DNA of 64,000 nt from Octopus sinensis. Its lineage: Eukaryota. Under the pieces are notes generated by a model, which was not told the origin of the DNA, searched no databases, and was given only the letters and a program-made list of their open reading frames with translations. This document shows positions 1 through 58,892 of this stretch, in pieces (position 1 is the stretch's first letter; every line of letters starts with the position of its first letter). The translations under genes and the position numbers were made by a program. Location: positions 18,414,001 to 18,478,000 of the forward strand of contig NC_042999.1 in assembly GCF_006345805.1 (NCBI RefSeq). Direction: 5' to 3'.

Positions 1-446
1 ATTTATTTTCATTGTCTACTGCTGTGTGTTGAAGATGTCAATTAACGACAGAAACACTAAAACGAATAAACGAGCACAATCTCTGCTTCTGGTCTGAATG
101 GGCCCTGAACTCTATGGATAATAAGAACGAAACTATGTACGTTAAACATGAATACAAAATAAAACACATACACATCATTTACATTATTTACATTTGACAT
201 ATATTTGTCCTCATCATGTTTGCTGTTAATACAATATTTCGGCAGATATACCCTCCGTCTATTTCGTTGTTCACGTGTGAAGCTCACGTTGTCCAGCGTT
301 ATTCATTACTTGCATTTCTTTAACATAAAAGACGTAAAACTTTGCTTTCTCTGATTCATCTCCTTCCTTCGAAATATTTTCCATGATGAAAGATACACTC
401 CGAAACGTTGAATATTCTACCTCACACGGCAATTTCAATGTATATA

Positions 447-862
447 TCTCTTTTATTCTCTTTTACTTGTTTCAGTCATTTGACTGTGGCCATGCTGAAG
501 CACCGCCTTTAGTCGCGCAAATCGACCCCAGGACTTATTCTTTTGTAAGACTAGTACATATTATATCAGTCTCTTTTTTGCAGAACAGCTAGGTTACGAG
601 GACGTAAACACACCAGCATCGATTGTCAAGCGATGTTGCGGGTACAAACACAGACACGCAAACACGCACATACATATATATATACACGCACACATACATA
701 TATGCGACGGGCTTCTTTCAGTTTCCGTCTACCAAATCCACTCACAAGGATTGGGTCGGCCCGAGGCTATAGTAGAATACACTTACCCAAGGTGCCACGC
801 AGTGCGACTGAAACCGGAACCATGTGGTTCGTTAGCAAGCTACTTACCACACAGTCACTCCT
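447..862 (-). mobile_element. tRNA-derived SINE family E (CORE-like 'ccttgggcaagt' box, internal TA/TG microsatellite, (GTAAAAGA)n tail)
   Basis: Near full-length match to copies at 1080-1520, 2095-2500 and 33098-33490; B-box-like GGTTCAGTCC in head. Confidence 0.85.
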
Positions 863-1079
863 TTGTGTATTTTAAGAAATATAAACAAAGACATAAGGAG
901 AAAAGAGATAAATACCAAATGCAGAATGATAGATATTTAGTAACAGTCAAATAATTGAGACGTTATTGTCAGAAATGAAAATATTTTGAAGGAATTTGAA
1001 ACATGATCACCAAAACATACGAGTACAAATAAATTATCAGCAGGGATGATTCAGACGGATAGAAACAAAAGGTAAACAT

Positions 1080-1239
1080 AGGTGTAGGAGTGGCCGTGTA
1101 GTAAGTAGCTTCCTACCAGCCACATGGTTCTGGGTTCAGTCCCACTGCGTGGCACCTTGGGCAAGTGTATAGCCTCGGGCCGACCAAAGCCTTGTGAGTG
1201 GATTTGGTAGACGGAAACTGAAAGAAGCCTGTCGTATAA

Positions 1240-1309
<70 letters not shown>

Positions 1310-1520
1310 TTGTGTGTCTGTGTTTGTCCCCCTGGCATTGCTTGACAACCGATGCTGGTGTGTTTACGTCCACGTAACTTAGCGGTTCGGCTAACGAGAC
1401 CGATAGAATAAGTACTAGGCTTACAAAGAATAAGTCCTGAGGTCGCTTTGTCCGACGAAAAGTTGGTGCTCCAGTATGGCCGCTGTCAAGTGATTGAAAC
1501 AAATAAAAGAGTAAAAGAGT
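1080..1520 (+). mobile_element. SINE family E, full length
   Basis: aggagtggccgtgtagtaag head ... gaaacaaataaaagagtaaaagag tail; multiple copies in window. Confidence 0.9.
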
Positions 1521-2094
1521 ATAATTTGACGAGTTAGAGAAGAATGTACATGTATATAGGTTGACTATTTCTTTCTAGTTGTTGGTTGTAGTAGAACAGT
1601 GTTATTTCATATAAGGCAACGATCTTAAATCCTTATCTGTGTAGGGATGATATTTCTAATGTCAAAACTTTGAACGTAAACACACAAAAAAGACAGCCTG
1701 ACGCACAGACAGATAGCTAGCTAGACAGAAGGAGAGAGAGAGATAAAGATAAAGATAAAGAGATACATATATCATCGTGGTTGTATAATATATAAGTATT
1801 TTTTGTTAAATTGCGAGATAAAATTTTCTTAAGATGGTGAATGAAGAGGTTTATATCGAAATCTATAATTGGCACGCCTACGCGCACGCATACACTCGCA
1901 CAGACACAAACACGCACCAACACATACACACATGCATCCATACATATATATATACACATGTGCGTATGCTTACATTTTGGTCCATACTTGTATGGACGAG
2001 TGTACATGAGCCGTGCAGAGTACGTGAGGGCATTTATGCATCCATATCCGTTAACTCTTATTTGTCATAGTTTTATCGCTATATTTTGCTTACT

Positions 2095-8100: not shown

Positions 8101-8700
8101 ATATATGTACATATTTGTATGATATTTCACGTGATACAAATTATATTCATGATGTATTGAGAGCATATTCGCTACCAGGGAAAGTGAAATAACTGTCTGA
8201 GATTAATGCCTGCAGTGCCTATAAATTTGTAAGTCTTTTCTTTGCATGAGTCAAGGATGGCAAGCATACATAGTGATGGCACCTATAAAAGCGGAATCTC
8301 CTATCAGCGTATTTGCTTCTCTCTCAGACACAAGACTTTCTTCTATTGAATTTCATTTCAAGTATCAGCTGGTCATAAATCCGTTCAGGAGAAAATTTAA
8401 CCGCTCTCGCAAATCAAAGAGGGTTCCATTAGATAGGATATTCCCATGGGTGCTAATTAACATTCATTTTCTTTTATAGTTATTGGAATTCTTTAAAACT
8501 TTTTATCATCTCGTTATTGGGGCTTATTATTAATCTAAAATATAGGTATAATCAATTCTAACCAGTTCTTCGTGGCACCATGATGACTAAAGGGACTCAA
8601 TATGCGTGCATACATACGTGCATACATATAAATATATTTCTATGTGTATATATTCATATATATGTGTGTGTGTGTGTACATGTATATGCATATATATATA

Positions 8701-8771
<71 letters not shown>

Positions 8772-8793
8772 ATGTTACATTACTCGGTAGTCA

Positions 8794-8856
8794 AGATAAA
8801 ACTCTGAGTTTCAGATGCCGAAGTGGAAATCCACAACACCATCTCTTCGGTTATCT
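8794..8856 (-). ncRNA. Type I hammerhead ribozyme-like motif in left pLTR
   Basis: AGAUAA | CCGAAGA | GAUG..CAUC(U) | GAAACUCAGAGUU | UUAUCU; perfect 6-bp stem I. Confidence 0.7.
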
Positions 8857-9050
8857 GGCTATTTGAAAACGTTATGAAAAAATACCGTTAAAAATGAAGG
8901 GAAATTACTCTGTTATAACTCTGCTTTGCCTGCGTACTTATACATCGCTCGCATTTTTCGTCATAAAAATTATATAAAAATACATAAAAATATATAAAAA
9001 TATATAGAAATATATAAAATCTTCTTGGGACATAACACAGAAAGCATGTT

Positions 9051-11110
9051 CTATCCGTTTTCTTTAGGGGACCAAAAACGTAAGAGAAATTTAGTCACAT
9101 GTGGGCATGATCCGAAAAGCTCTGTCCTTGTATTTAGACATGTGGTAGGGTCTAAGCTGCTTTTCCAGATAAGCCATCTCTCCATGTCGCATAAACCGCA
9201 CCTTCCGCTGCCGTTAGTGTAGGGCTTACATCTGGCCAAAATCTTCCATTGTATGTTATAATCGACACCTTTATCTCTTAAAGACCAAATATGATTGGAT
9301 AATTGTGTCGCTTTTCTTTTGTTCCAGTGCCCAAAGCTCAAAGTGTGGTTATTGAACCTGGCCTTGAAATTACCCTCTGTCAGGCCCACGTATTTCTTCG
9401 TCGAAACGGTGTCTTTAGTGGTTATAGAGTTTACGGTAGCTTCATATATGATGGTCTTGGACATGCAAGCTCCATTTAGCGGGCACAATTCTTTATTCCT
9501 GCATGAACAGCTGTTTTCTTCTTGTGTTTTTTGTATGTTATGATTGATTATGTTTTTGAAATTGGTAGTTGAACTAAAACTAATTTTTAAATTGTGTCTA
9601 TTGAAGAGTTTCCTATAAGCATGGTTAACTGGAAAATGTCTATCTATCAGTGCTAGGAAATATTTACCTATATTGAAGGCCACCTCGGGTGAGTAAGGGG
9701 GCGTAAACCAGATGACCTTCCTATTTCTATTATTCCTTTTCCTTACTGTTGGGCTGGTGATAGGTGTATATTTTATTTTTTCGCTAAAACCACTATCTTT
9801 TAAAGCTTTATTATAAACTGGGGCAACGCTATTGAAGATGTCCTCATTGGATGAGAGGCTAGAAATCCTCTTACTAATATTTTTAACTAAATTTTTGAAT
9901 ACTATAGGGGGATGGCATGAACCTACATTAATATAACTTAGTCTATCATTGGGCTTCCTATAAGGCTTATAAATATTATTATTAAGATCTAAGGAAACGT
10001 CTAAGAAATTGACAACCGTCAGGTTAGTGTCTATAGTTATACTAAGTCCGAAGTGTTTCATTAACTGGATAATATCCTTCCTAAAACGATCTTGTGCTGG
10101 TCCATTTGTATTAGCTGTTAAGGCGAGGGCATCATCTTTGTAGATGGCGAAATGTACGTTACGGAATGTCTTACCGAAGGTATCTAGGAGAAAGAGTCCA
10201 ATTAGATCACAGATGCCTGCCCCATCATATGAACCCATGCTCACATCGAAAGCGCCCTCCGTGTCGGTGTTTTTTACCCACTTTGCATTCTCACTGAAAA
10301 GTAATGTCTTTCTAGCATGGAAGATTATATCCTTATCATTGGTACTAATTTCTATGAAGTCACTAGCGAAGATTAGGGCTTTATCTAGCAGTTCTTTAGA
10401 GATAGAGGCATAAAAATCAACAATATCGAATTGTGTAAACCTCGCTTTTTTCTTATTCTTAATAGCTTTAAACCAGTCTACGACTTCTATACTATTGGAC
10501 CATTGCACTAGCCTAGTATCGGTCTTAATTTTCGTATTTATTCTATCTAAAATTTCTTTGCTAATAATCCCTAGTTCTGACTTGGCTGGGTTGATAAGCC
10601 TACATTTAGGGTTGGAAAGGAAGTTTTCTTTGTGATCTTTAATAGTAATAAAGGCCTCTTTTTGGGGGAGGGTTTCTATTTTTTTATCTAATTTAAGTTT
10701 AGCGGCGATGACGCTAGCTTCTTTATTAATTTCGTTATATGTCTGTGCCCTAGCCTTAGTATAATTATTAGTAATGCTGTTGTGTAAGAGTTGTGTGTAT
10801 TTGCTGTTATCTACCAGGTATAAGTTCTTGGTTTTATCCGAAAAAAGTGCTTTTTTCTTGGAGCTTTTTATATGATCAATATCTATTTTCAATTTATGTT
10901 GGAAATTGTTAAAAGACTTACGAAACTTTATTTTGCTCATGATCTTCAGCAGGTCCGCTTCGAAATCTTCCAAGCCTTTAATCCTAGGAGGAAATTTTTT
11001 GGATTTTATCCGATAGAAAATGTTTTCCTTGGTGTTCGCTTCTGTGTCAAAAAAGAAAGCCTTCCATCTCATACGCTTAATTACATCAGTAATTTTTTGC
11101 AGAAGTTTCT
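9051..11110 (-). CDS. Penelope-like reverse transcriptase + GIY-YIG endonuclease, 5'-truncated (frame stays open upstream of M at 11072 to the inversion junction)
   Basis: RT motifs FDIVDFY, MGSYDGA, YKDD, NFLDV; CSCR..CPL..C linker; IIY..YVG..R..H..CGLC endonuclease; upstream in-frame KKLLQKITDVIKR-MRWKA. Confidence 0.95.
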
Positions 11111-12484
11111 TATTGTTGATTTTTATGCCTCTATCTCTAAAGAACTGCTAGATAAAGCCCTAATCTTCGCTAGTGACTTCATAGAAATTAGTACCAATGA
11201 TAAGGATATAATCTTCCATGCTAGAAAGACATTACTTTTCAGTGAGAATGCAAAGTGGGTAAAAAACACCGACACGGAGGGCGCTTTCGATGTGAGCATG
11301 GGTTCATATGATGGGGCAGGCATCTGTGATCTAATTGGACTCTTTCTCCTAGATACCTTCGGTAAGACATTCCGTAACGTACATTTCGCCATCTACAAAG
11401 ATGATGCCCTCGCCTTAACAGCTAATACAAATGGACCAGCACAAGATCGTTTTAGGAAGGATATTATCCAGTTAATGAAACACTTCGGACTTAGTATAAC
11501 TATAGACACTAACCTGACGGTTGTCAATTTCTTAGACGTTTCCTTAGATCTAATAATAATATTTATAAGCCTTATAGGAAGCCCAATGATAGACTAAGTT
11601 ATATTAATGTAGGTTCATGCCATCCCCCTATAGTATTCAAAAATTTAGTTAAAAATATTAGTAAGAGGATTTCTAGCCTCTCATCCAATGAGGACATCTT
11701 CAATAGCGTTGCCCCAGTTTATAATAAAGCTTTAAAAGATAGTGGTTTTAGCGAAAAAATAAAATATACACCTATCACCAGCCCAACAGTAAGGAAAAGG
11801 AATAATAGAAATAGGAAGGTCATCTGGTTTACGCCCCCTTACTCACCCGAGGTGGCCTTCAATATAGGTAAATATTTCCTAGCACTGATAGATAGACATT
11901 TTCCAGTTAACCATGCTTATAGGAAACTCTTCAATAGACACAATTTAAAAATTAGTTTTAGTTCAACTACCAATTTCAAAAACATAATCAATCATAACAT
12001 ACAAAAAACACAAGAAGAAAACAGCTGTTCATGCAGGAATAAAGAATTGTGCCCGCTAAATGGAGCTTGCATGTCCAAGACCATCATATATGAAGCTACC
12101 GTAAACTCTATAACCACTAAAGACACCGTTTCGACGAAGAAATACGTGGGCCTGACAGAGGGTAATTTCAAGGCCAGGTTCAATAACCACACATTGAGCT
12201 TTGGGCACTGGAACAAAAGAAAAGCGACACAATTATCCAATCATATTTGGTCTTTAAGAGATAAAGGTGTCGATTATAACATACAATGGAAGATTTTGGC
12301 CAGATGTAAGCCCTACACTAACGGCAGCGGAAGGTGTGGTTTATGCGACATGGAGAGATGGCTTATCTGGAAAAGCAGCTTAGACCCTACCACATGTCTA
12401 AATACAAGGACAGAGCTTTTCGGATCATGCCCACATGTGACTAAATTTCTCTTACGTTTTTGGTCCCCTAAAGAAAACGGATAG
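11111..12484 (+). pseudogene. Inverted second copy of the RT-EN 3' two-thirds, with a 1-nt frameshift near 11551
   Basis: Starts at IVDFYAS; gatctaat versus gatcttaat in the left arm; remainder identical in protein. Confidence 0.92.
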
Positions 12485-12678
12485 AACATGCTTTCTGTGT
12501 TATGTCCCAAGAAGATTTTATATATTTTTATGTATTTTTATATATTTTTATGTATTTTTATATAATTTTTATGACGAAAAATGCGAGCGATGTATAAGTA
12601 CGCAGGCAAAGCAGAGTTATAACAGAGTAATTTCCCTTCATTTTTAACGGTATTTTTTCATAACGTTTTCAAATAGCC

Positions 12679-12741
12679 AGATAACCGAAGAGATGGTGTT
12701 GTGGATTTCCACTTCGGCATCTGAAACTCAGAGTTTTGTCT
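12679..12741 (+). ncRNA. Type I hammerhead ribozyme-like motif in right pLTR
   Basis: Mirror of 8794-8856 with one A>G change giving a G-U pair in stem I. Confidence 0.7.
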
Positions 12742-12836
12742 TGACTACCGAGTAATGTAACATATTGTATAGATAAATTTCCTCTATTACATAATATTGA
12801 GGTCTCTTTCTTTCTTTTGTTATCTTACCGTTTTAT

Positions 12837-12893
<57 letters not shown>

Positions 12894-12910
12894 CATATAT
12901 ACATATATAT

Positions 12911-13074
12911 AAAATTAGAACAAAAAACATCTTTTATCAATTAAAAATGAACAATTAAATTACATCATCTAGAAAATTACATATAATAGAAATATCAAAA
13001 TTAAAATAACAATAAAATGTCAATGATTAAGTAAATTTCCAAACAATAATGAAAAAAACGTGTGTATATATATA

Positions 13075-18333: not shown

Positions 18334-19036
18334 GGATATTTATCTTTTGACCGACAGATTTTAAAAAAAGAATTTTTTGTGACTAAACACTTTCAAACTT
18401 CGGACACTGGTAGAATGTGTCATACAAAACATGTTTTGCTATTAGCACTTTTGAGAAAAACTTATATTTAGGAAGTTATTTCACGTTAAATATCTCGTAT
18501 TTCGGAAAAGTCCAACCAATCAATGACGTGTATTCATCTGAATAAAATTACTGCCGTTGTTTGTCAACAACTATCGGTGGTGTATTTTTCGTTTGTCACT
18601 GTTATTTATGGTATCGTTCGTGCGTTTGTACTGGTTTTAAGGTTTTAGTGTTAAGGGTAAGATTTTGGGGTTAGGGTCTTGGGGTTAGGGTTAGTGATTT
18701 AGGAATAGAGGTAGAGTTAGGTTTTTAGGGTTGGGGTTAGAGTTTTAGGGTTAGTGTTGTCATAAAATCAGTGAAAAACGAAATATACACCGCCGGAAGT
18801 TCTTGTTGACAAACTACGGCAGTAATTTTATTCAGCTGAATAAACGTCATTGATTGGTTGAAATTACCGAAAGGCGAGAACTTTAACATGGAATAACATC
18901 TTAAATATAATTTTTTCTCAAAAATGCTAAGAGTAAAATATGTTTTATATGACACATTCTACCAATGTCCGAAGTTTGAAAGTGTTTAGTTACAAAAAAT
19001 TATTTTTTAAATATGTAGGTCAAAAGGTAAAGATTC
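18334..19036. mobile_element. MITE/foldback element with ~270-bp TIRs and a central degenerate (TTAGGG)n tract
   Basis: 18336-18610 is the reverse complement of 18761-19034; centre ggggttagggtcttggggttagggttag. Confidence 0.85.
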
Positions 19037-28099: not shown

Positions 28100-30282
28100 G
28101 GCACAACATTTAAATAAGTCTATTGACATTTAGCTCGAAGTATCGGGCAGTGAAAAAATCAACAGAGTGCGATGTATTGAGCTTAATCTTGGATTTATAT
28201 AAATCCTATTAAGTTAATATCTTCAAAAATGTGGATTTGATTGGAATATTACTTGGGTTTTAGCGTCGATTGTTGATGGCTCATGTTTTTGAAAATGTTT
28301 CCATCATAAACATATATTAAAATATATACGTACACATATACATATGTACACAAAATATATATATTTTACACAATATATATAAAAATATAGATATGTACAA
28401 AAAAGAAACATGTACACATATATGCATATGTATATATATGTATGTATCCGGTAATAAACTGTTATTGACACGTGGGGACAAAACCAACGACAGCCGCAGC
28501 TAAGTTTGAACTCAGAATGTAAAAGGTCAGGAGAAATACCACAGTGGCTTTTTTAGCGAACGCCACTTGCCAGCTTGTCAATAAATACCTGTGTAATTAG
28601 AAAAATCATTTACTAATCAGGGAATAAAATTTAGCACTTAGATGCCTCTGTTTCATTCTCTCTTTCCATTCTTTCCGATACAAGAATCCGATAAATCATG
28701 AAAACGATCCATGCTATAAATTCTGATAACGTGAGAGATATAATACAGAATATGTTTAATTTATGTGTAAAATATTCAGTTGTATTTTTTTTTATATCTT
28801 AACTTAATTTCTGTGTTACATCGCATATTATTGAGCTGACATTAATAAATTATCTTCCACCCGTATACAACAATTTCTTCAATTAACTATCTCTTTAAAT
28901 ACCAAGCTTATCTGAGAATGTATGAGCACACTAATTTTATGGTCTATTCCTACACGCCGTTTCTATGGTTGAATATCTGAAGTATTTACACATCTATGGC
29001 TGACGTTGGTGTACAAATGTAAAGGTCTTCAATTTTCTGTTTAAGATTAAAACAATAATTTTTAATGTAACGATCTCATTTATTGTTTATCTTGAACTAG
29101 CTTCATTAACAAGGTTGCTTCGATATAATCGCTTGACTGACTAGAAATACAAGTTACATCATTCGATCCAGCGATGGCTCAGGAGAATCTTAAGCGTTTT
29201 GGATACAGTGTTTTGTGGTATTTGTTCGGATTTTCTTCAATGTGTGTTCAAAACCCACCGAGGTCAATTTTGCCTCTCCTCCCTGCTAGGTTGATAAAAT
29301 GTCCCATTGCTTGCCTGTGGATTACAAAAGTAGTAAGAATGTCGAAACTTGATGTTTTGTGATATTTATTTGGGTCTATGTGTTTTGATTTCAGATTCTT
29401 GGCCGCCATGTCTCACTAGGAAAGTAGCTTTCATTCATCACGAAGCTTAACACAACTATCTGTCAACAGGTATATCGCTAGTGGAGGTCACTGCTTTACG
29501 AGTATTTAGATATTAAAACATACAAACTCGCCCAAGGTTAATTTGTATTGACCAATGGACAATGCTTAAACAACTGACTAAAAGAGAATTAAAAATTCAA
29601 AAACCCGTCCTTCCTGTCTTAAAAATGAATTTTATAACGTAACTCATCGCTTACTGACATTGGAATGTAAGACAGGGTGATTGCCGAAGTCTTCAATATC
29701 TCTGATGATATGGTTGCTCGTTTTGGGCTGACCTGAAGTGAAACAAGAATATCAAGCATCAAGGATTGTGTCTGTAGTGAGGCCCTTGATATAATGCTAG
29801 AAAATATAGTAAATCAGCTTGAAAGCAAAAAGTAAACGGAAGGGTTGTTAATTCAGTTAGAGATGAACTGTTGCGAAAGAAATAAAGAAATGAGGAAACC
29901 CACTGTAAATATGTGCAGAACTGTACGATGAAACGTAGTGTAATTGTATCTTTAGGAAGGGTATTTTGAGTTAAATATGAAGTGATGTATTTGGAGAGTA
30001 ATCAAAACCTGTGATCACTGTTTCCTATCTCCAATTATAGATCTGTTGCTTTCAAATCCAATATCTCAAAAGTTATGGAAAATGTTGCCAGTGATATTCT
30101 TTATCCTTCTGAATTACACACATTCCTCAGTTACCAAATTTATGGATTCTGCATGGCTACAGTCACTGAAATACTTCTTTTCTATCACTTACGTGAAGGC
30201 ACTAAACAGTAGCAAAACATTCGGCGTTTCCTGCTGGCTAAAATTTCCTTTTTCGTATAATCAAATGGGTTGGGTTTGTTCT

Positions 30283-31402
30283 GCCTGTTCAAAGCAATGC
30301 AATTTGATGTCATAGCAGTGTGACAGGAGCTCATCCACTTTCTGCTATCTTCTTTTTTGCTTCTTAATGTACATCAACAACATAAATACCATCGCCTTCT
30401 ATAGCTCACACAATTTTGTATATACTGATGATCGTGACCCCTTCTTAAGAATCTGCGCACCAGTACCATTTGTATAGAAGCTGTCAAAATAAATAATCAC
30501 AATCGCATGTCAAAACATTAGCTAAATATGTCATATTAGTCTCATCTTGTTTAACGTTACGAGTTCAAAATCATTCTATATATAAGGAGAATAAATCTTG
30601 TTTCTGAGGGGTCTAGAACTTTGAACGTAGTTGCAAATACTCAAATCCAGTAGTACTGTTTAAACTTTTGGAAGACATTCCGCTAAGAACAGGACGAATC
30701 AAATGTTCAAATATTCAAACATTGGTTGTCAGTTTATAGTAAGAAAATAATTCAAATCTCAAAGATTTTGAGTCACAAAAAGCTCAAAATTAAATCATTT
30801 GTTGAGTATTTTCCCCACATCTAAGAGGTGCTGTTACAATACATGTTACATAATAGAAAAATTCCCCGAAAAAAGTAATTGCATGGTTGATTGTAAACCT
30901 GTCCCCTACAAAAGGGCTGTATTGGCAGTTTGTCTATTTTATCGCCGCGATACCTAATTTATCAGTCAGCAATACCCATATTTTTCACTTGTCTATTTTA
31001 CATTTGTTATCCATAGTTTGCCTCTATGTTATCAATAAATTTGTTGTTTAAGTAGAACAGCGTAAGTATCAATACCGATGATCTATGTATGAGTGTAAAC
31101 CATACGATTATGGCCCATCCCACCTAAACAAACCTGTATAGTATCATTACAATTTTCCGAATGTACTTGTTTACATTTCATGCAGATTTAACACAGTACT
31201 TAACTGGTAAATTTAATCAATTTAATATGAATTATCATAAGAAGGGATCACGATCGTCAGTATATACAAAATTGCGTGAGCTATAGAAGGCGATGGCATT
31301 CATGTTGTTGGTGTACATTAAGAAGCAAAAGCAAAAATGGCAGAAAGTGGATGAGCTCCTGTAACACTGCTATGATATCACATCGCATTGCTTTGAACAG
31401 AC
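30283..31402. repeat. ~165-bp inverted repeat pair (30283-30447 / 31237-31402)
   Basis: Reverse-complement match by eye; second arm bracketed by a duplicated 'acagtact..tttaatcaatttaatatgaattatcat'. Confidence 0.85.
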
Positions 31403-33097
31403 AGTACTAATAACTTTAATCAATTTAATATGAATTATCATCACCTATGAACACTGAATATATTTGTATAAAAGAATGGCTTTCATTCAACTTACTTGCA
31501 TAAAGATGAAAATCCGAGTGAATATATTCAAAAATTACATCACAACCTCAGAGTGCAAGAGACACACGAAGTTGCCAAATTTTAGGAACTAATTTTTACT
31601 AATCATACTTGCAAATTCGAACCTAAGAATTTAGCATGCAAGTAAACTACGAATAAACTGCACCAGGGAAACAGATAGAGGCAGCCAAATTGTTTTTCTT
31701 GGCTTACTTTTAAAGCCATCGTCCGGTCAGGATAACTCAGCCATGGATTTCAAGAGCAGTTATGATGATGCAATTCAAGAAATATTGACTTGAACATAGA
31801 TCTAATTGAACTATAAGCTTGTATACTTATATACAAAAATCCATATCTATTTATCTCTAAATGTATGTGTGTGTATGTGTGTGTATTTACATGTAGGCAA
31901 GTGTGCGTGTGAGTATTTGTGTGTGCGTTTCTGGGTGAATACGCAAAATTATATCCGCTTCACTGATTAAGGTAGTAAGCGTGACAGTAATGAAAATGTG
32001 TGGAGAATATATATGTTCATATGCGAATAATTAAAAAATAAAATCTGTCTCTGCCAGTCGTTCTGTTTAATATATATATATATATATATACCCACATGTA
32101 TATATTCACACATAGAGAAAACGATGGAGTTGGCATTAGGTTTTTATACGGACGTGGCTAAAGCTTAAGCGAAGTTCTTTCGGAGAAACAAGTCTCAATC
32201 TCTTAACAACACAACCTTACCAGCGCCTAAGCTCTATCTCTCTCAGCCTCTCTCTCATTCTCTCTCTCTCTCTCTCTCATCTCTCTTTCTCACTCTCTGT
32301 CGCTCTGCATATACATATACATATACATACACTATGTGTTTGTACAGATACATAGTGAGAGACGATTGCTATATTGTATATCTATTTGTAAAAATGCTTC
32401 TATATTTGGAAACGAAAACCTTAATCAACTCCCTCAAAACAAATTTTATCATCAATATTTACTGACTCTGGTTATAGATTCACACTCCTCATTAGAGAAA
32501 ACTTCCAGTCAGTTTATTGTTTCCAGGAGATTAATTTTCAAACAAATGTAACAGATATATATATATATATATATATATTCAGCCATATATATAAATTATA
32601 GTGAAACATAGATAGTCCCAGCTCTACTGCATAATATGAGGTGTGTGGATGAGCGTAAGGAGAACTTTATTTCATACGATTCCTTTATTATATCTGAATG
32701 ATTTGTTTTGGAAATTATTTATTGGAATTTTTTTTCAATAATCATGGTTAAACTTTATATTATATTTGTAATAAAGTATTCTATTTTAATAACCGTTGCT
32801 GGTGTTGGTGGCATTGCGAATGTTATATTGTTTCTAGAAGCAAATACACACATTCGCAAATATAAAATAATATGCACAAGTATATAGCCCTTTGTGTATG
32901 TGTGTGAGCTCCTCTGTGTATGTATGCGGCCTCTTTGTATATGCACTCAAACATAAGCCCTAAACATACACCAACACAAAGAAAACCCATATGCAGCCTG
33001 CGACCCACAGATAGATGCATACATAGATAGATGCATAGACACCAACACACACACGCATTTATATCTATGCTTATATGTAGCTATATAACTTTATATA

Positions 33098-45514: not shown

Positions 45515-46869
45515 ACATATATATATATGTGTGTATATATATGTATATATATATATATATATATATAATATAATATATATATATATATATACACACACAT
45601 ATATATATATACACATATATGTGGGTGTGCGTGTGGATGCTTGGGTATGTGTGGATATTTATACACCTGCACACACAAGATACTTGGTTTCTACCACTCA
45701 GAGACCATGTACGTTTAAGCGAAAGGAAATTCAAAGGCTGCCTTATTTCTTACTCAAAGAATATGTGAGTGCATGTTTATATGCACGCGTGAGTGTGACC
45801 AGCTGCTTGTATAGGTGCATGTGTGTGTGTGCATTTGTAACTTCACAAGATTCATTTTCTATGCTAATGCAACAGCACCAAATGTCTAGTGTCTGAAAAT
45901 ATGCATATATTTCTAAATCTTGAAGAGACATGTAAAATGACTGATTATTATGAATTTTCGTTAAACGTACTTCTAATCTTGGCGGCCATAACACTGCTTT
46001 ATCAAGATACATTTAGAAACAAAATGACGTTTATAATAATAATAAACATTATGAATTCGATTGTTCGTTCCTTCTTGTCATTTACATTACCACAATATTC
46101 TGATATAAAATTGGGTGAACTATTCTATTAGAGATTTCCTACATTTCGAACGCATTTGTATTTCCATAGTATTAACCCTATCGACATTTCAGCGAGTTTA
46201 CGTTCAGAAAATTCCCAGTTTGGTGACATACATGAGATATCAGATGTAAACGAATAAAAATCTATCAATAAAATTGATTAAATTTATTTATGTACCTAGA
46301 AAAGTCCGTTCAATGTAAATGAATTTTGCATGTTATTTTCAGAAGCGACACTAACGTCGTGAAAATATCACGTAATTTTCAACACTTAGAGAAGAACACA
46401 ACACTGTTAACGTTCGCAAATAATTGCATTTCTTTTGTCTTCTTTCTACTGCACATAAATCAGCGAATTCCAATTGAATACCTATTTGGATACCTAAGAC
46501 TTAGTTTATAGCATATATTGTTGCCGAGAAGCCCTAATTCGGTTGTTTTATTTGTAGGTGAAATACATTTATAATATTCAAATAGCCACCCTAATGAAAT
46601 CTACAACATCCAAAATAATAATTTAGTACACTGCATTTTCCTGTTTATAATATAAAAGTTCACAATTCTCATTTATACATGTCTATCCATCTATCTATCT
46701 ATCTATAAATCTATCTATCAATATGTGTGTGCGCGCGCCTGTGGGTGTGTATATCTATGCATGTGCATGTGAAGCGGAGTACTATATGTTACCGACAATC
46801 TCAAGATAGTTTTGTGAGAAATTCTGAAATCATATACATATGTGTGTGTGTATATATATATATATATAT

Positions 46870-47042
46870 ACCGGAGTAAACACATAAATGTGAAACAAGG
46901 TGGAAAAAAGAGTACTCAAATACCAGTGGTAGAGTAATATGCTTTATTTAAAGCAGCTAGCAAAAACTGTCCGATGAACGGCAACGGGAAACTCAGAGTA
47001 ACAGGTTTTGTTGAATTTTCTTCTGTTTTAAATAAAGTATAT
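46870..47042. mobile_element. Head-to-head pLTR mini-element with HHR, in (TA)n
   Basis: atatgctttatttaaagcag (46937-46956) inverted at 47023-47042; left arm extends ~67 nt further. Confidence 0.75.
46961..47010 (+). ncRNA. Minimal type I hammerhead ribozyme-like motif
   Basis: caaaaacUGU CCGAUGA A CG GCAA CG G GAAACUCAGAGUA ACAGguuuug; 9 of 10 stem I pairs. Confidence 0.75.
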
Positions 47043-47051
47043 ATATATATA

Positions 47052-58303: not shown

Positions 58304-58521
58304 CTAATGTAGGATAAAATTCTTTTCGGGAAAAAAATTTTATCAATGGCCAGCATATCAAAAAATACCTTTAAAGGTTACATTTATAAATACTTTACAA
58401 GATAAGGGCAAACGAAAAATTCTAATGCCAAATATGCCGAAAAAAAGACAAAACTTTTCAATAACCATTATAATTTATGCGTCTCGAAACAAACCGATAG
58501 AAATCTCTAAAAAGTCCGTTA

Positions 58522-58582
58522 TTACCGTATTGGTTCAATTTCGGGGTTAATTAATAATAAATGTTCCCCTCTTCAGCGGCAA
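58522..58582 (-). ncRNA. Type I hammerhead ribozyme with canonical core
   Basis: UUGCCG CUGAAGA GGGG..CCCC GAAA UUG aac CAAU A CGGUAA: all three stems pair, AUA cleavage triplet. Confidence 0.85.
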
Positions 58583-58643
58583 ATACGCGAGATATAAGTG
58601 AAATACTTACTCATACCCACGGAAAACGCAAGCACTAAGTCTT

Positions 58644-58704
58644 TTGCCGTTGAAGAGGGGAAAATTTCATATTAATTAACCCCGAAATTGGACCAATACG
58701 GTAA
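58644..58704 (+). ncRNA. Hammerhead ribozyme copy with a C3U core change
   Basis: UUGCCG UUGAAGA GGGG..CCCC GAAAUUGGACCAAUA CGGUAA. Confidence 0.7.
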
Positions 58705-58826
58705 TAACGAACTTTTTAGAGATTTCTATCGGTTTTTTTCGAGACGCATAAATTATAATGGTTATTGAAAAGTTTTGTCTTTTTTCGGCATTTTTGGCAT
58801 TAGAATTTTTCTTTTTCCTTATCTTG

Positions 58827-58892
<66 letters not shown>

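What the first reader, a model, noticed from the sequence alone, without database searches (positions are those of the whole stretch)
8766..12840. Very young 4.1-kb Penelope/Naiad palindrome with near-identical 1.66-kb arms
Seen: the left arm carries an uninterrupted RT-GIY-YIG frame truncated at 11110. It is fused to an inverted copy starting mid-RT (11111 mirrors 10425). The arms differ by only about 5 substitutions (two synonymous in the ORF) and one frameshift. Inference: a single recent event from two cDNAs of an active family; any read-through transcript would fold into ~1.6 kb of dsRNA closed by ribozymes at both ends, a potential siRNA/piRNA source or ADAR substrate.
Basis: partly seen in the sequence, partly recalled or inferred. 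Interest (0 to 1): 0.72.

Follow-up and report, generated by a model that had tools for sequence, protein, structure and literature searches.

The report
Ordinary head-to-head Hydra retrotransposon insertion
This 4-kb mirror-image DNA is one ordinary insertion of a young Penelope-like jumping gene of the Hydra type, most of whose copies have the same shape; its uneven ends suggest that both cut ends of the target DNA likely start copying at two fixed points about 70 bases apart, while any role as double-stranded RNA is untested.

Summary
The palindrome is real as described (arms 8764-10425 and 11111-12771, 5 substitutions, one 1-nt deletion), but it is ordinary. The protein has RT before GIY-YIG and every Hydra-clade motif, so it is not a Naiad. 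The family has 1,236 exact 3'-end motifs genome-wide; 38 of 52 sampled chromosome-1 insertions carry an inverted partner; larger and less diverged palindromes exist elsewhere. Such 5'-inverted copies are in print, also for a Hydra element. What the copy adds: 12772-12840 is the family's ~70-nt tail, and 45 of 45 sampled head-to-head insertions have exactly one tailed and one tail-less end. Here the tail sits on the shorter arm, which therefore cannot be a fold-back copy of the longer one: two separate priming events from one source are likely, perhaps on one RNA. Each arm holds a hammerhead-like motif with a U4C core; any one transcript would carry only one in sense. Both arms lack the 5' end, no A-to-G excess was found, and the junction is unconfirmed by reads. 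This scan reached a similar twin-priming reading before on other DNA of this genome.

The parts
8690..8763 (.). (TA)n target, left part
   Evidence: sequence; family ends join (TA)n
8764..11112 (-). Long arm: 5'-truncated Hydra-clade element, family positions 171-2520, tail-less (short) 3' end
   Evidence: alignment to a real full-length copy
9051..11112 (-). Open RT + C-terminal GIY-YIG frame, about 686 codons, lacking the first ~22 codons of the 708-aa family ORF; motifs RWK, DKT, YKDD, CxCX5C, IIY...YVG, CxxC, CxH
   Evidence: 778 homologues at E<=1e-20
8790..8860 (-). Type I hammerhead-like motif (core CCGAAGA = U4C, long stem II, palindromic stem III)
   Evidence: pattern scan, fold shows stems I and II, same layout as Hydra motifs in File S2; Rfam gave no hammerhead hit; activity untested
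10426..11110 (-). 685-nt unpaired spacer (5' part of the long arm)
11111..11112 (.). Head-to-head junction with 2-nt microhomology
11111..12840 (+). Short arm: inverted copy, family positions 859-2590, frameshifted at 11550/11551, tailed (long) 3' end
12675..12745 (+). Second hammerhead-like motif; one A>G change keeps a stem I pair as U-G
12772..12840 (+). ~70-nt family tail, on one end only; one T missing against 96 of 96 other copies
12841..12912 (.). (TA)n target, right part; no target-site duplication can be told inside the repeat

Best explanation
This is one ordinary head-to-head insertion of a young Hydra-clade Penelope-like retrotransposon into a (TA)n repeat, likely made when both cut target ends primed reverse transcription at two fixed start sites about 70 nt apart on RNA of one source, and the two incomplete cDNAs were likely joined through a 2-nt microhomology. 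Shown: the anatomy, the clade motifs, the family-wide shape, the one-tail rule, the shared source of the arms. Inferred: cleavage of both strands and priming by both ends (shown in vitro only for a Poseidon element, PMC11167929); the tail-less end primes upstream, the tailed end downstream; because the arms overlap by 1.66 kb, either one RNA was copied twice with strand displacement (favoured, about 55:45) or two RNAs of one source were bound together. The copy is promoterless and likely inert.
For: Hydra motifs all present (against section 11); protein collinear by eye with Hydra-1_Obim in the supplement. 1,236 exact 3'-end motifs; 38 of 52 chromosome-1 insertions inverted. 45 of 45 head-to-head insertions with two complete ends have one short and one long end; the probe lies upstream of both end types, so it does not select for this. 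The tail-less arm reaches further 5' in 9 of 21 asymmetric pairs and in this window, and some partners are the tail alone (L002, L067, L078): a fold-back copy cannot gain a tail its template lacks. Arms of one insertion disagree at 19 of 83 informative sites against 26,873 of 29,555 between insertions. The two arms stop within 30 nt of each other in 7 of 28 larger pairs (1.1 expected, p=6e-5), as expected if both run off one broken RNA. 64 junctions show 0-6 nt of overlap or short inserts.
Against: No single copy carrying this insertion's shared private alleles was found: two probes each hit one other, different locus, so the source is unseen, and gene conversion between arms or cross-polishing in the assembly could also explain shared alleles. 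Near-symmetric pairs fit fold-back or central deletion too. In vitro no difference of start site between the two strands was seen (PMC11167929). 14 of 52 insertions have no inverted partner. No RT tree against named clades was built. Five of six arm-specific differences lie on the right arm, unexplained (possibly assembly errors).
Confidence: 0.75

Rival explanations
1. Self-priming or fold-back: one cDNA (or an antisense template) folds back and is copied to make the second arm, the reading offered for head-to-head Penelope structures in PMC3846280.
For: Published interpretation (passages); 21 of 42 sampled pairs are near-symmetric; shared private alleles.
Against: Here the longer arm lacks the tail that the shorter arm has, so the shorter arm cannot be copied from it; the same in 9 of 21 asymmetric pairs and in tail-only partners. 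The centre is a 685-nt spacer, not a hairpin.
Confidence: 0.07
2. Assembly artefact: a fold-back chimeric long read or collapsed repeat made the palindrome.
For: Near-identical arms with five shared private alleles; two single-base losses on the right arm look like read errors.
Against: Flanks are not mirrored; the ends obey the family's one-tail rule; six arm differences; contig sets of three other runs also hold short head-to-head joints of this family (table 5).
Confidence: 0.05
3. Two independent insertions, or a later rearrangement, placed two copies back to back.
For: (TA)n targets could attract repeated insertions.
Against: No (TA)n at the junction; arms share 5 alleles absent from 50-93 other segments; the one-tail rule would not hold for independent events.
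Confidence: 0.03
4. The locus matters as a hairpin RNA source (siRNA/piRNA or ADAR substrate) through read-through transcription. Not exclusive of the best explanation.
For: 1.66 kb of 99.6% complementarity would pair if transcribed; small RNAs from Penelope families are mentioned for a rotifer (passage).
Against: Both arms lack the 5' region; no Pfam family above its cut-off in 30 tested frames of the window, so no host exon was recognised (short exons would be missed); no A>G excess in the family; hundreds of similar palindromes exist, so this one is not special.
Confidence: 0.1

Closest known systems
Hydra clade of C-terminal-endonuclease Penelope-like elements, nearest Hydra-1_Obim (Craig et al. 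2021, PMC8557442)
   Same: RT then GIY-YIG, RWK, DKT, CxCX5C, CxxC and CxH, unit under 3 kb, (TA)n target, hammerhead near the 3' end; Penelope-13_HM is listed with a 5'-truncated inverted copy at its 5' end, and Penelope-3_HM has the same stem III letters.
   Different: A different family from Hydra-1_Obim (different hammerhead and protein); core U4C; tail about 70 nt rather than the 30-40 nt given for Penelope-like elements.
Poseidon element PAc of Anolis (Frangieh et al. 2024, PMC11167929)
   Same: Two internal start sites bounding the tail; both target strands cut and extended in vitro; AT-rich target.
   Different: Other clade; there no strand preference of start site was seen, whereas here every sampled two-ended insertion uses one of each; here both ends adjoin TA-like letters that could pair with the target.
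Penelope elements of Adineta vaga and Drosophila virilis (PMC3846280)
   Same: [quoted passage not shown]
   Different: Head-to-head structure was there read as self-priming; this copy does not fit that.
Naiad elements (PMC8557442)
   Same: Inverted 5'-truncated partner, tail, (TA)n target.
   Different: Naiads have the endonuclease at the N-terminus, DKA, 3.4-4.4 kb and no canonical hammerhead.

Membership tests
Hydra clade PLE | Single ORF, RT followed by C-terminal GIY-YIG endonuclease | tested here: met
   YKDD at 323, IIY at 553, YVG at 573 of 686. Pfam itself gave 0 families for this protein; best homologue carries a GIY-YIG hit.
Hydra clade PLE | RWK and DKT motifs | tested here: met
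   RWK at 14, DKT at 91; RW[KR] in 116 and DK[TS] in 118 of 120 homologues
Hydra clade PLE | CxCX5C linker; CxxC and CxH near the end instead of CCHH | tested here: met
   CSCRNKELC 534, CGLC 637, CPH 668; no cysteine between 549 and 626
Hydra clade PLE | Unit shorter than 3 kb; insertion into (TA)n | tested here: met
   unit 2,590 nt; ends join TA repeats
Hydra clade PLE | Canonical hammerhead motif in the 3' region | tested here: inconclusive
   Layout as in File S2 but core U4C in 142 of 145 sampled segments; only 16 genome matches to a canonical-core probe; Rfam no hit
Hydra clade PLE | Placement in the Hydra clade by RT phylogeny | not tested
   Only an eye comparison with the supplement's proteins; no tree with named references
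Naiad | N-terminal GIY-YIG endonuclease before RT | tested here: not met
   endonuclease motifs lie after the RT; the full 708-aa ORF starts ~22 codons before the truncation
Naiad | DKA motif; body 3.4-4.4 kb | tested here: not met
   DKT; 2,590 nt
Penelope/Poseidon, Neptune, Nematis | DKG motif and CCHH motif in the endonuclease | tested here: not met
Active hammerhead ribozyme | Self-cleavage | not testable with these tools
   Indirect test (5' ends at the predicted cut) not significant

The most novel reading that the evidence does not exclude
Hydra-clade elements integrate by obligate staggered twin priming: the two cut target ends are assigned to two fixed start sites ~70 nt apart on a single RNA, and both polymerases copy the same RNA by strand displacement, so inverted arms and the one-sided tail are one reaction. 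This copy, with the tail on its shorter arm, is a natural case that rules out fold-back.
Probability: 0.45. Interest if true: 0.55.

Novelty: new member of a known kind. Interest (0 to 1): 0.3.

Why it matters
The locus itself is one of several hundred such insertions and is probably inert. Its value is as evidence: how Penelope-like elements form inverted repeats and a one-sided tail is stated as open (PMC8557442 discussion passages; PMC11167929). A strict one-tail rule and cases that exclude fold-back give a simple prediction for the existing in vitro system. The family's habit also means that hundreds of near-perfect inverted repeats are being seeded in a genome that is likely an octopus's, a possible source of dsRNA and of assembly errors.

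Tried and rejected
1) Hot spot of 5' ends at the predicted hammerhead cut: four independent sampled loci began at family positions 2485-2486, but genome-wide probes gave, after I removed indel and substitution matches by eye, about 19 of 59 true junctions at the cut against about 15 of 41 and 12 of 19 in control windows: not significant, dropped. 2) ADAR footprint: 35 A>G against 41 T>C among 382 private changes: none. 3) Source copy: probes for two shared private alleles each found one other, different locus lacking the remaining alleles. 4) Reads: no RNA holder listed. No contig of four runs bridged the junction and only 3 raw reads of one run lay on the region; records are filtered and none need be the assembled individual, so this proves nothing either way; contigs break in the TA repeats, so an empty site could not be seen. 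5) Pfam, PDB and Rfam gave nothing useful for the element. 6) Folding z-scores of the hammerhead regions were weak (-1.4, -1.1). 7) Host gene: 30 of 77 long frames scanned, none above a Pfam cut-off. 8) No target-site duplication outside the TA repeat. Rows left out of counts: duplicates of one insertion (L001, L019, L030, second unit of L034); L005, L037, L090 from the 42-pair test; L087 (tail-to-tail) and L048, L058, L088 (incomplete partner) from the 45.

Full report
Observation. The inverted repeat is as described. Arms run 8764-10425 and 11111-12771 with a 685-nt spacer; they differ by five substitutions and one missing base on the right. The left frame is open to its stop at 9051; the right one is frameshifted; the two coding substitutions are synonymous. 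The arms share two bases at the junction. Both outer ends run into (TA)n; the flanks beyond are unrelated.

What it is. The protein has RT motifs first and GIY-YIG motifs last, with RWK, DKT, CxCX5C, CxxC and CxH. These define the Hydra clade in Craig et al. 2021 (PMC8557442; I read the abstract, passages, sections 6 and 11, part 2 of the supplement and supplement search hits), whereas Naiads have an N-terminal endonuclease. The only supplement protein holding the string RWKAFF is Hydra-1_Obim, collinear with ours by eye but a different family, with a different hammerhead. 778 homologues were found at E<=1e-20; the best 120 are 40-51% identical and nearly all keep the motifs. Pfam, PDB and Rfam did not recognise the element. 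The host is likely an octopus (inference from a 2.72-Gb TA-rich genome and the nearest described family); Penelope families with recent insertions are tabulated for Octopus vulgaris (PMC13282606, passages).

The family. The genome holds 1,236 exact matches to a 29-nt 3'-end probe; the 30 best long copies are 96-100% identical. The unit is 2,590 nt; 2 of 11 copies printed have a 708-aa frame. The window's long arm starts at unit position 171, the short arm at 859, so both lack the 5' end. I fetched every chromosome-1 site listed (52) and the first 11 on chromosome 2. On chromosome 1, 38 of 52 have an inverted partner and 14 are single. The palindrome is therefore the family's normal form, and it is in print for Penelope-like elements in general and for a Hydra element, Penelope-13_HM. 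It is large (5 of 42 sampled pairs overlap by 1 kb or more, none by 1.6 kb) but not the largest (L010, L014, L017 overlap more), and of average age: 0.30% between arms against 101 differences in 28,370 nt (0.36%) over 34 arm pairs, three pairs over 1 kb having none. With the calibration quoted in PMC13282606 (distance 0.09 = 25 million years) this is roughly 0.4 million years at most, a rough figure inflated by copying and assembly errors.

The one-tail rule. 12772-12840 is a ~70-nt tail that belongs to the element and precedes the 5' region in tandem copies. Ends are either short (before the tail) or long (after it), and both adjoin TA-like letters. All 45 of 45 head-to-head insertions with two complete ends have one of each. 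[quoted passage not shown] Three paper searches listed no paper stating a strict pairing or twin priming for these elements; subscription papers are not covered.

Mechanism. Fold-back or self-priming, the reading in PMC3846280 (passages), requires the further-reaching arm to be the template. Here that arm has no tail while the shorter arm has one; the same holds in 9 of 21 asymmetric pairs, and some partners are the tail alone. Two primings are therefore likely. Both arms come from one source: this insertion's arms share five alleles absent from 50-93 other segments, and arms of one insertion disagree at 19 of 83 informative sites against 91% between insertions. One RNA is favoured because arms stop together more often than chance (7 of 28, 1.1 expected), but two RNAs of one source, or later gene conversion, are not excluded, and no source copy was found. 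Junctions show short overlaps or inserts (64 examined), as expected of end joining.

Ribozymes and dsRNA. Each arm holds a type I hammerhead-like motif laid out like those of Hydra elements, with a palindromic stem III of the kind reported to need a tandem dimer (PMC4209133, passages). Its core is U4C in 142 of 145 segments, a change reported to lower activity considerably in vitro yet tolerated in a viroid (PMC3088659, passage). A transcript of either strand would carry one motif in sense, at its 3' end, paired with its complement; 'closed by ribozymes at both ends' does not hold. A possible hot spot of 5' ends at the cut site failed its genome-wide control. There is no A-to-G excess and no recognised host exon. 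I also read the first part of a preprint on animal retrozymes (10.64898/2026.07.22.740005); it did not bear on the verdict.

Verdict. The modest interest lies in the strict one-tail rule and in this copy's exclusion of fold-back. Earlier notes of this scan on other DNA of this genome reached similar readings; my reading was set down before that look-up, and they are not independent support. Independent read confirmation of this junction is still lacking.

Noticed in passing
window 46853-47050 (+), motif at 46961-47010: A second, unrelated short element between TA repeats with a hammerhead-like motif that also has a U4C core and the same palindromic stem III.
   Followed up: partly
L035, L042, L046, L050, L054, L060, L061, L072, L073, L077, L081, L082, L086, L089: 14 of 42 sampled pairs are ~270-bp mini-palindromes whose two arms both begin at unit positions 2395-2445, just upstream of the hammerhead: a likely transcription start or strong stop, copied from the RNA's 5' repeat.
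   Followed up: partly
L090:313-905: Tandem piece in which the tail runs into the first 142 nt of the unit and then jumps back to position 2420; may mark the end of a short RNA or a template jump.
   Followed up: no
L034:348-2562: The same palindromic insertion occurs twice in a row; tandem duplication or assembly duplication.
   Followed up: no
window 443-1523, 1086-2498, 18336-19034, 30275-31410, 58379-58844: Several older inverted-repeat elements (83-89% alike arms) of other families.
   Followed up: no
window 11111-12840: Five of six arm-specific differences, plus a base missing in the tail, lie on the right arm; unexplained, possibly assembly errors.
   Followed up: partly
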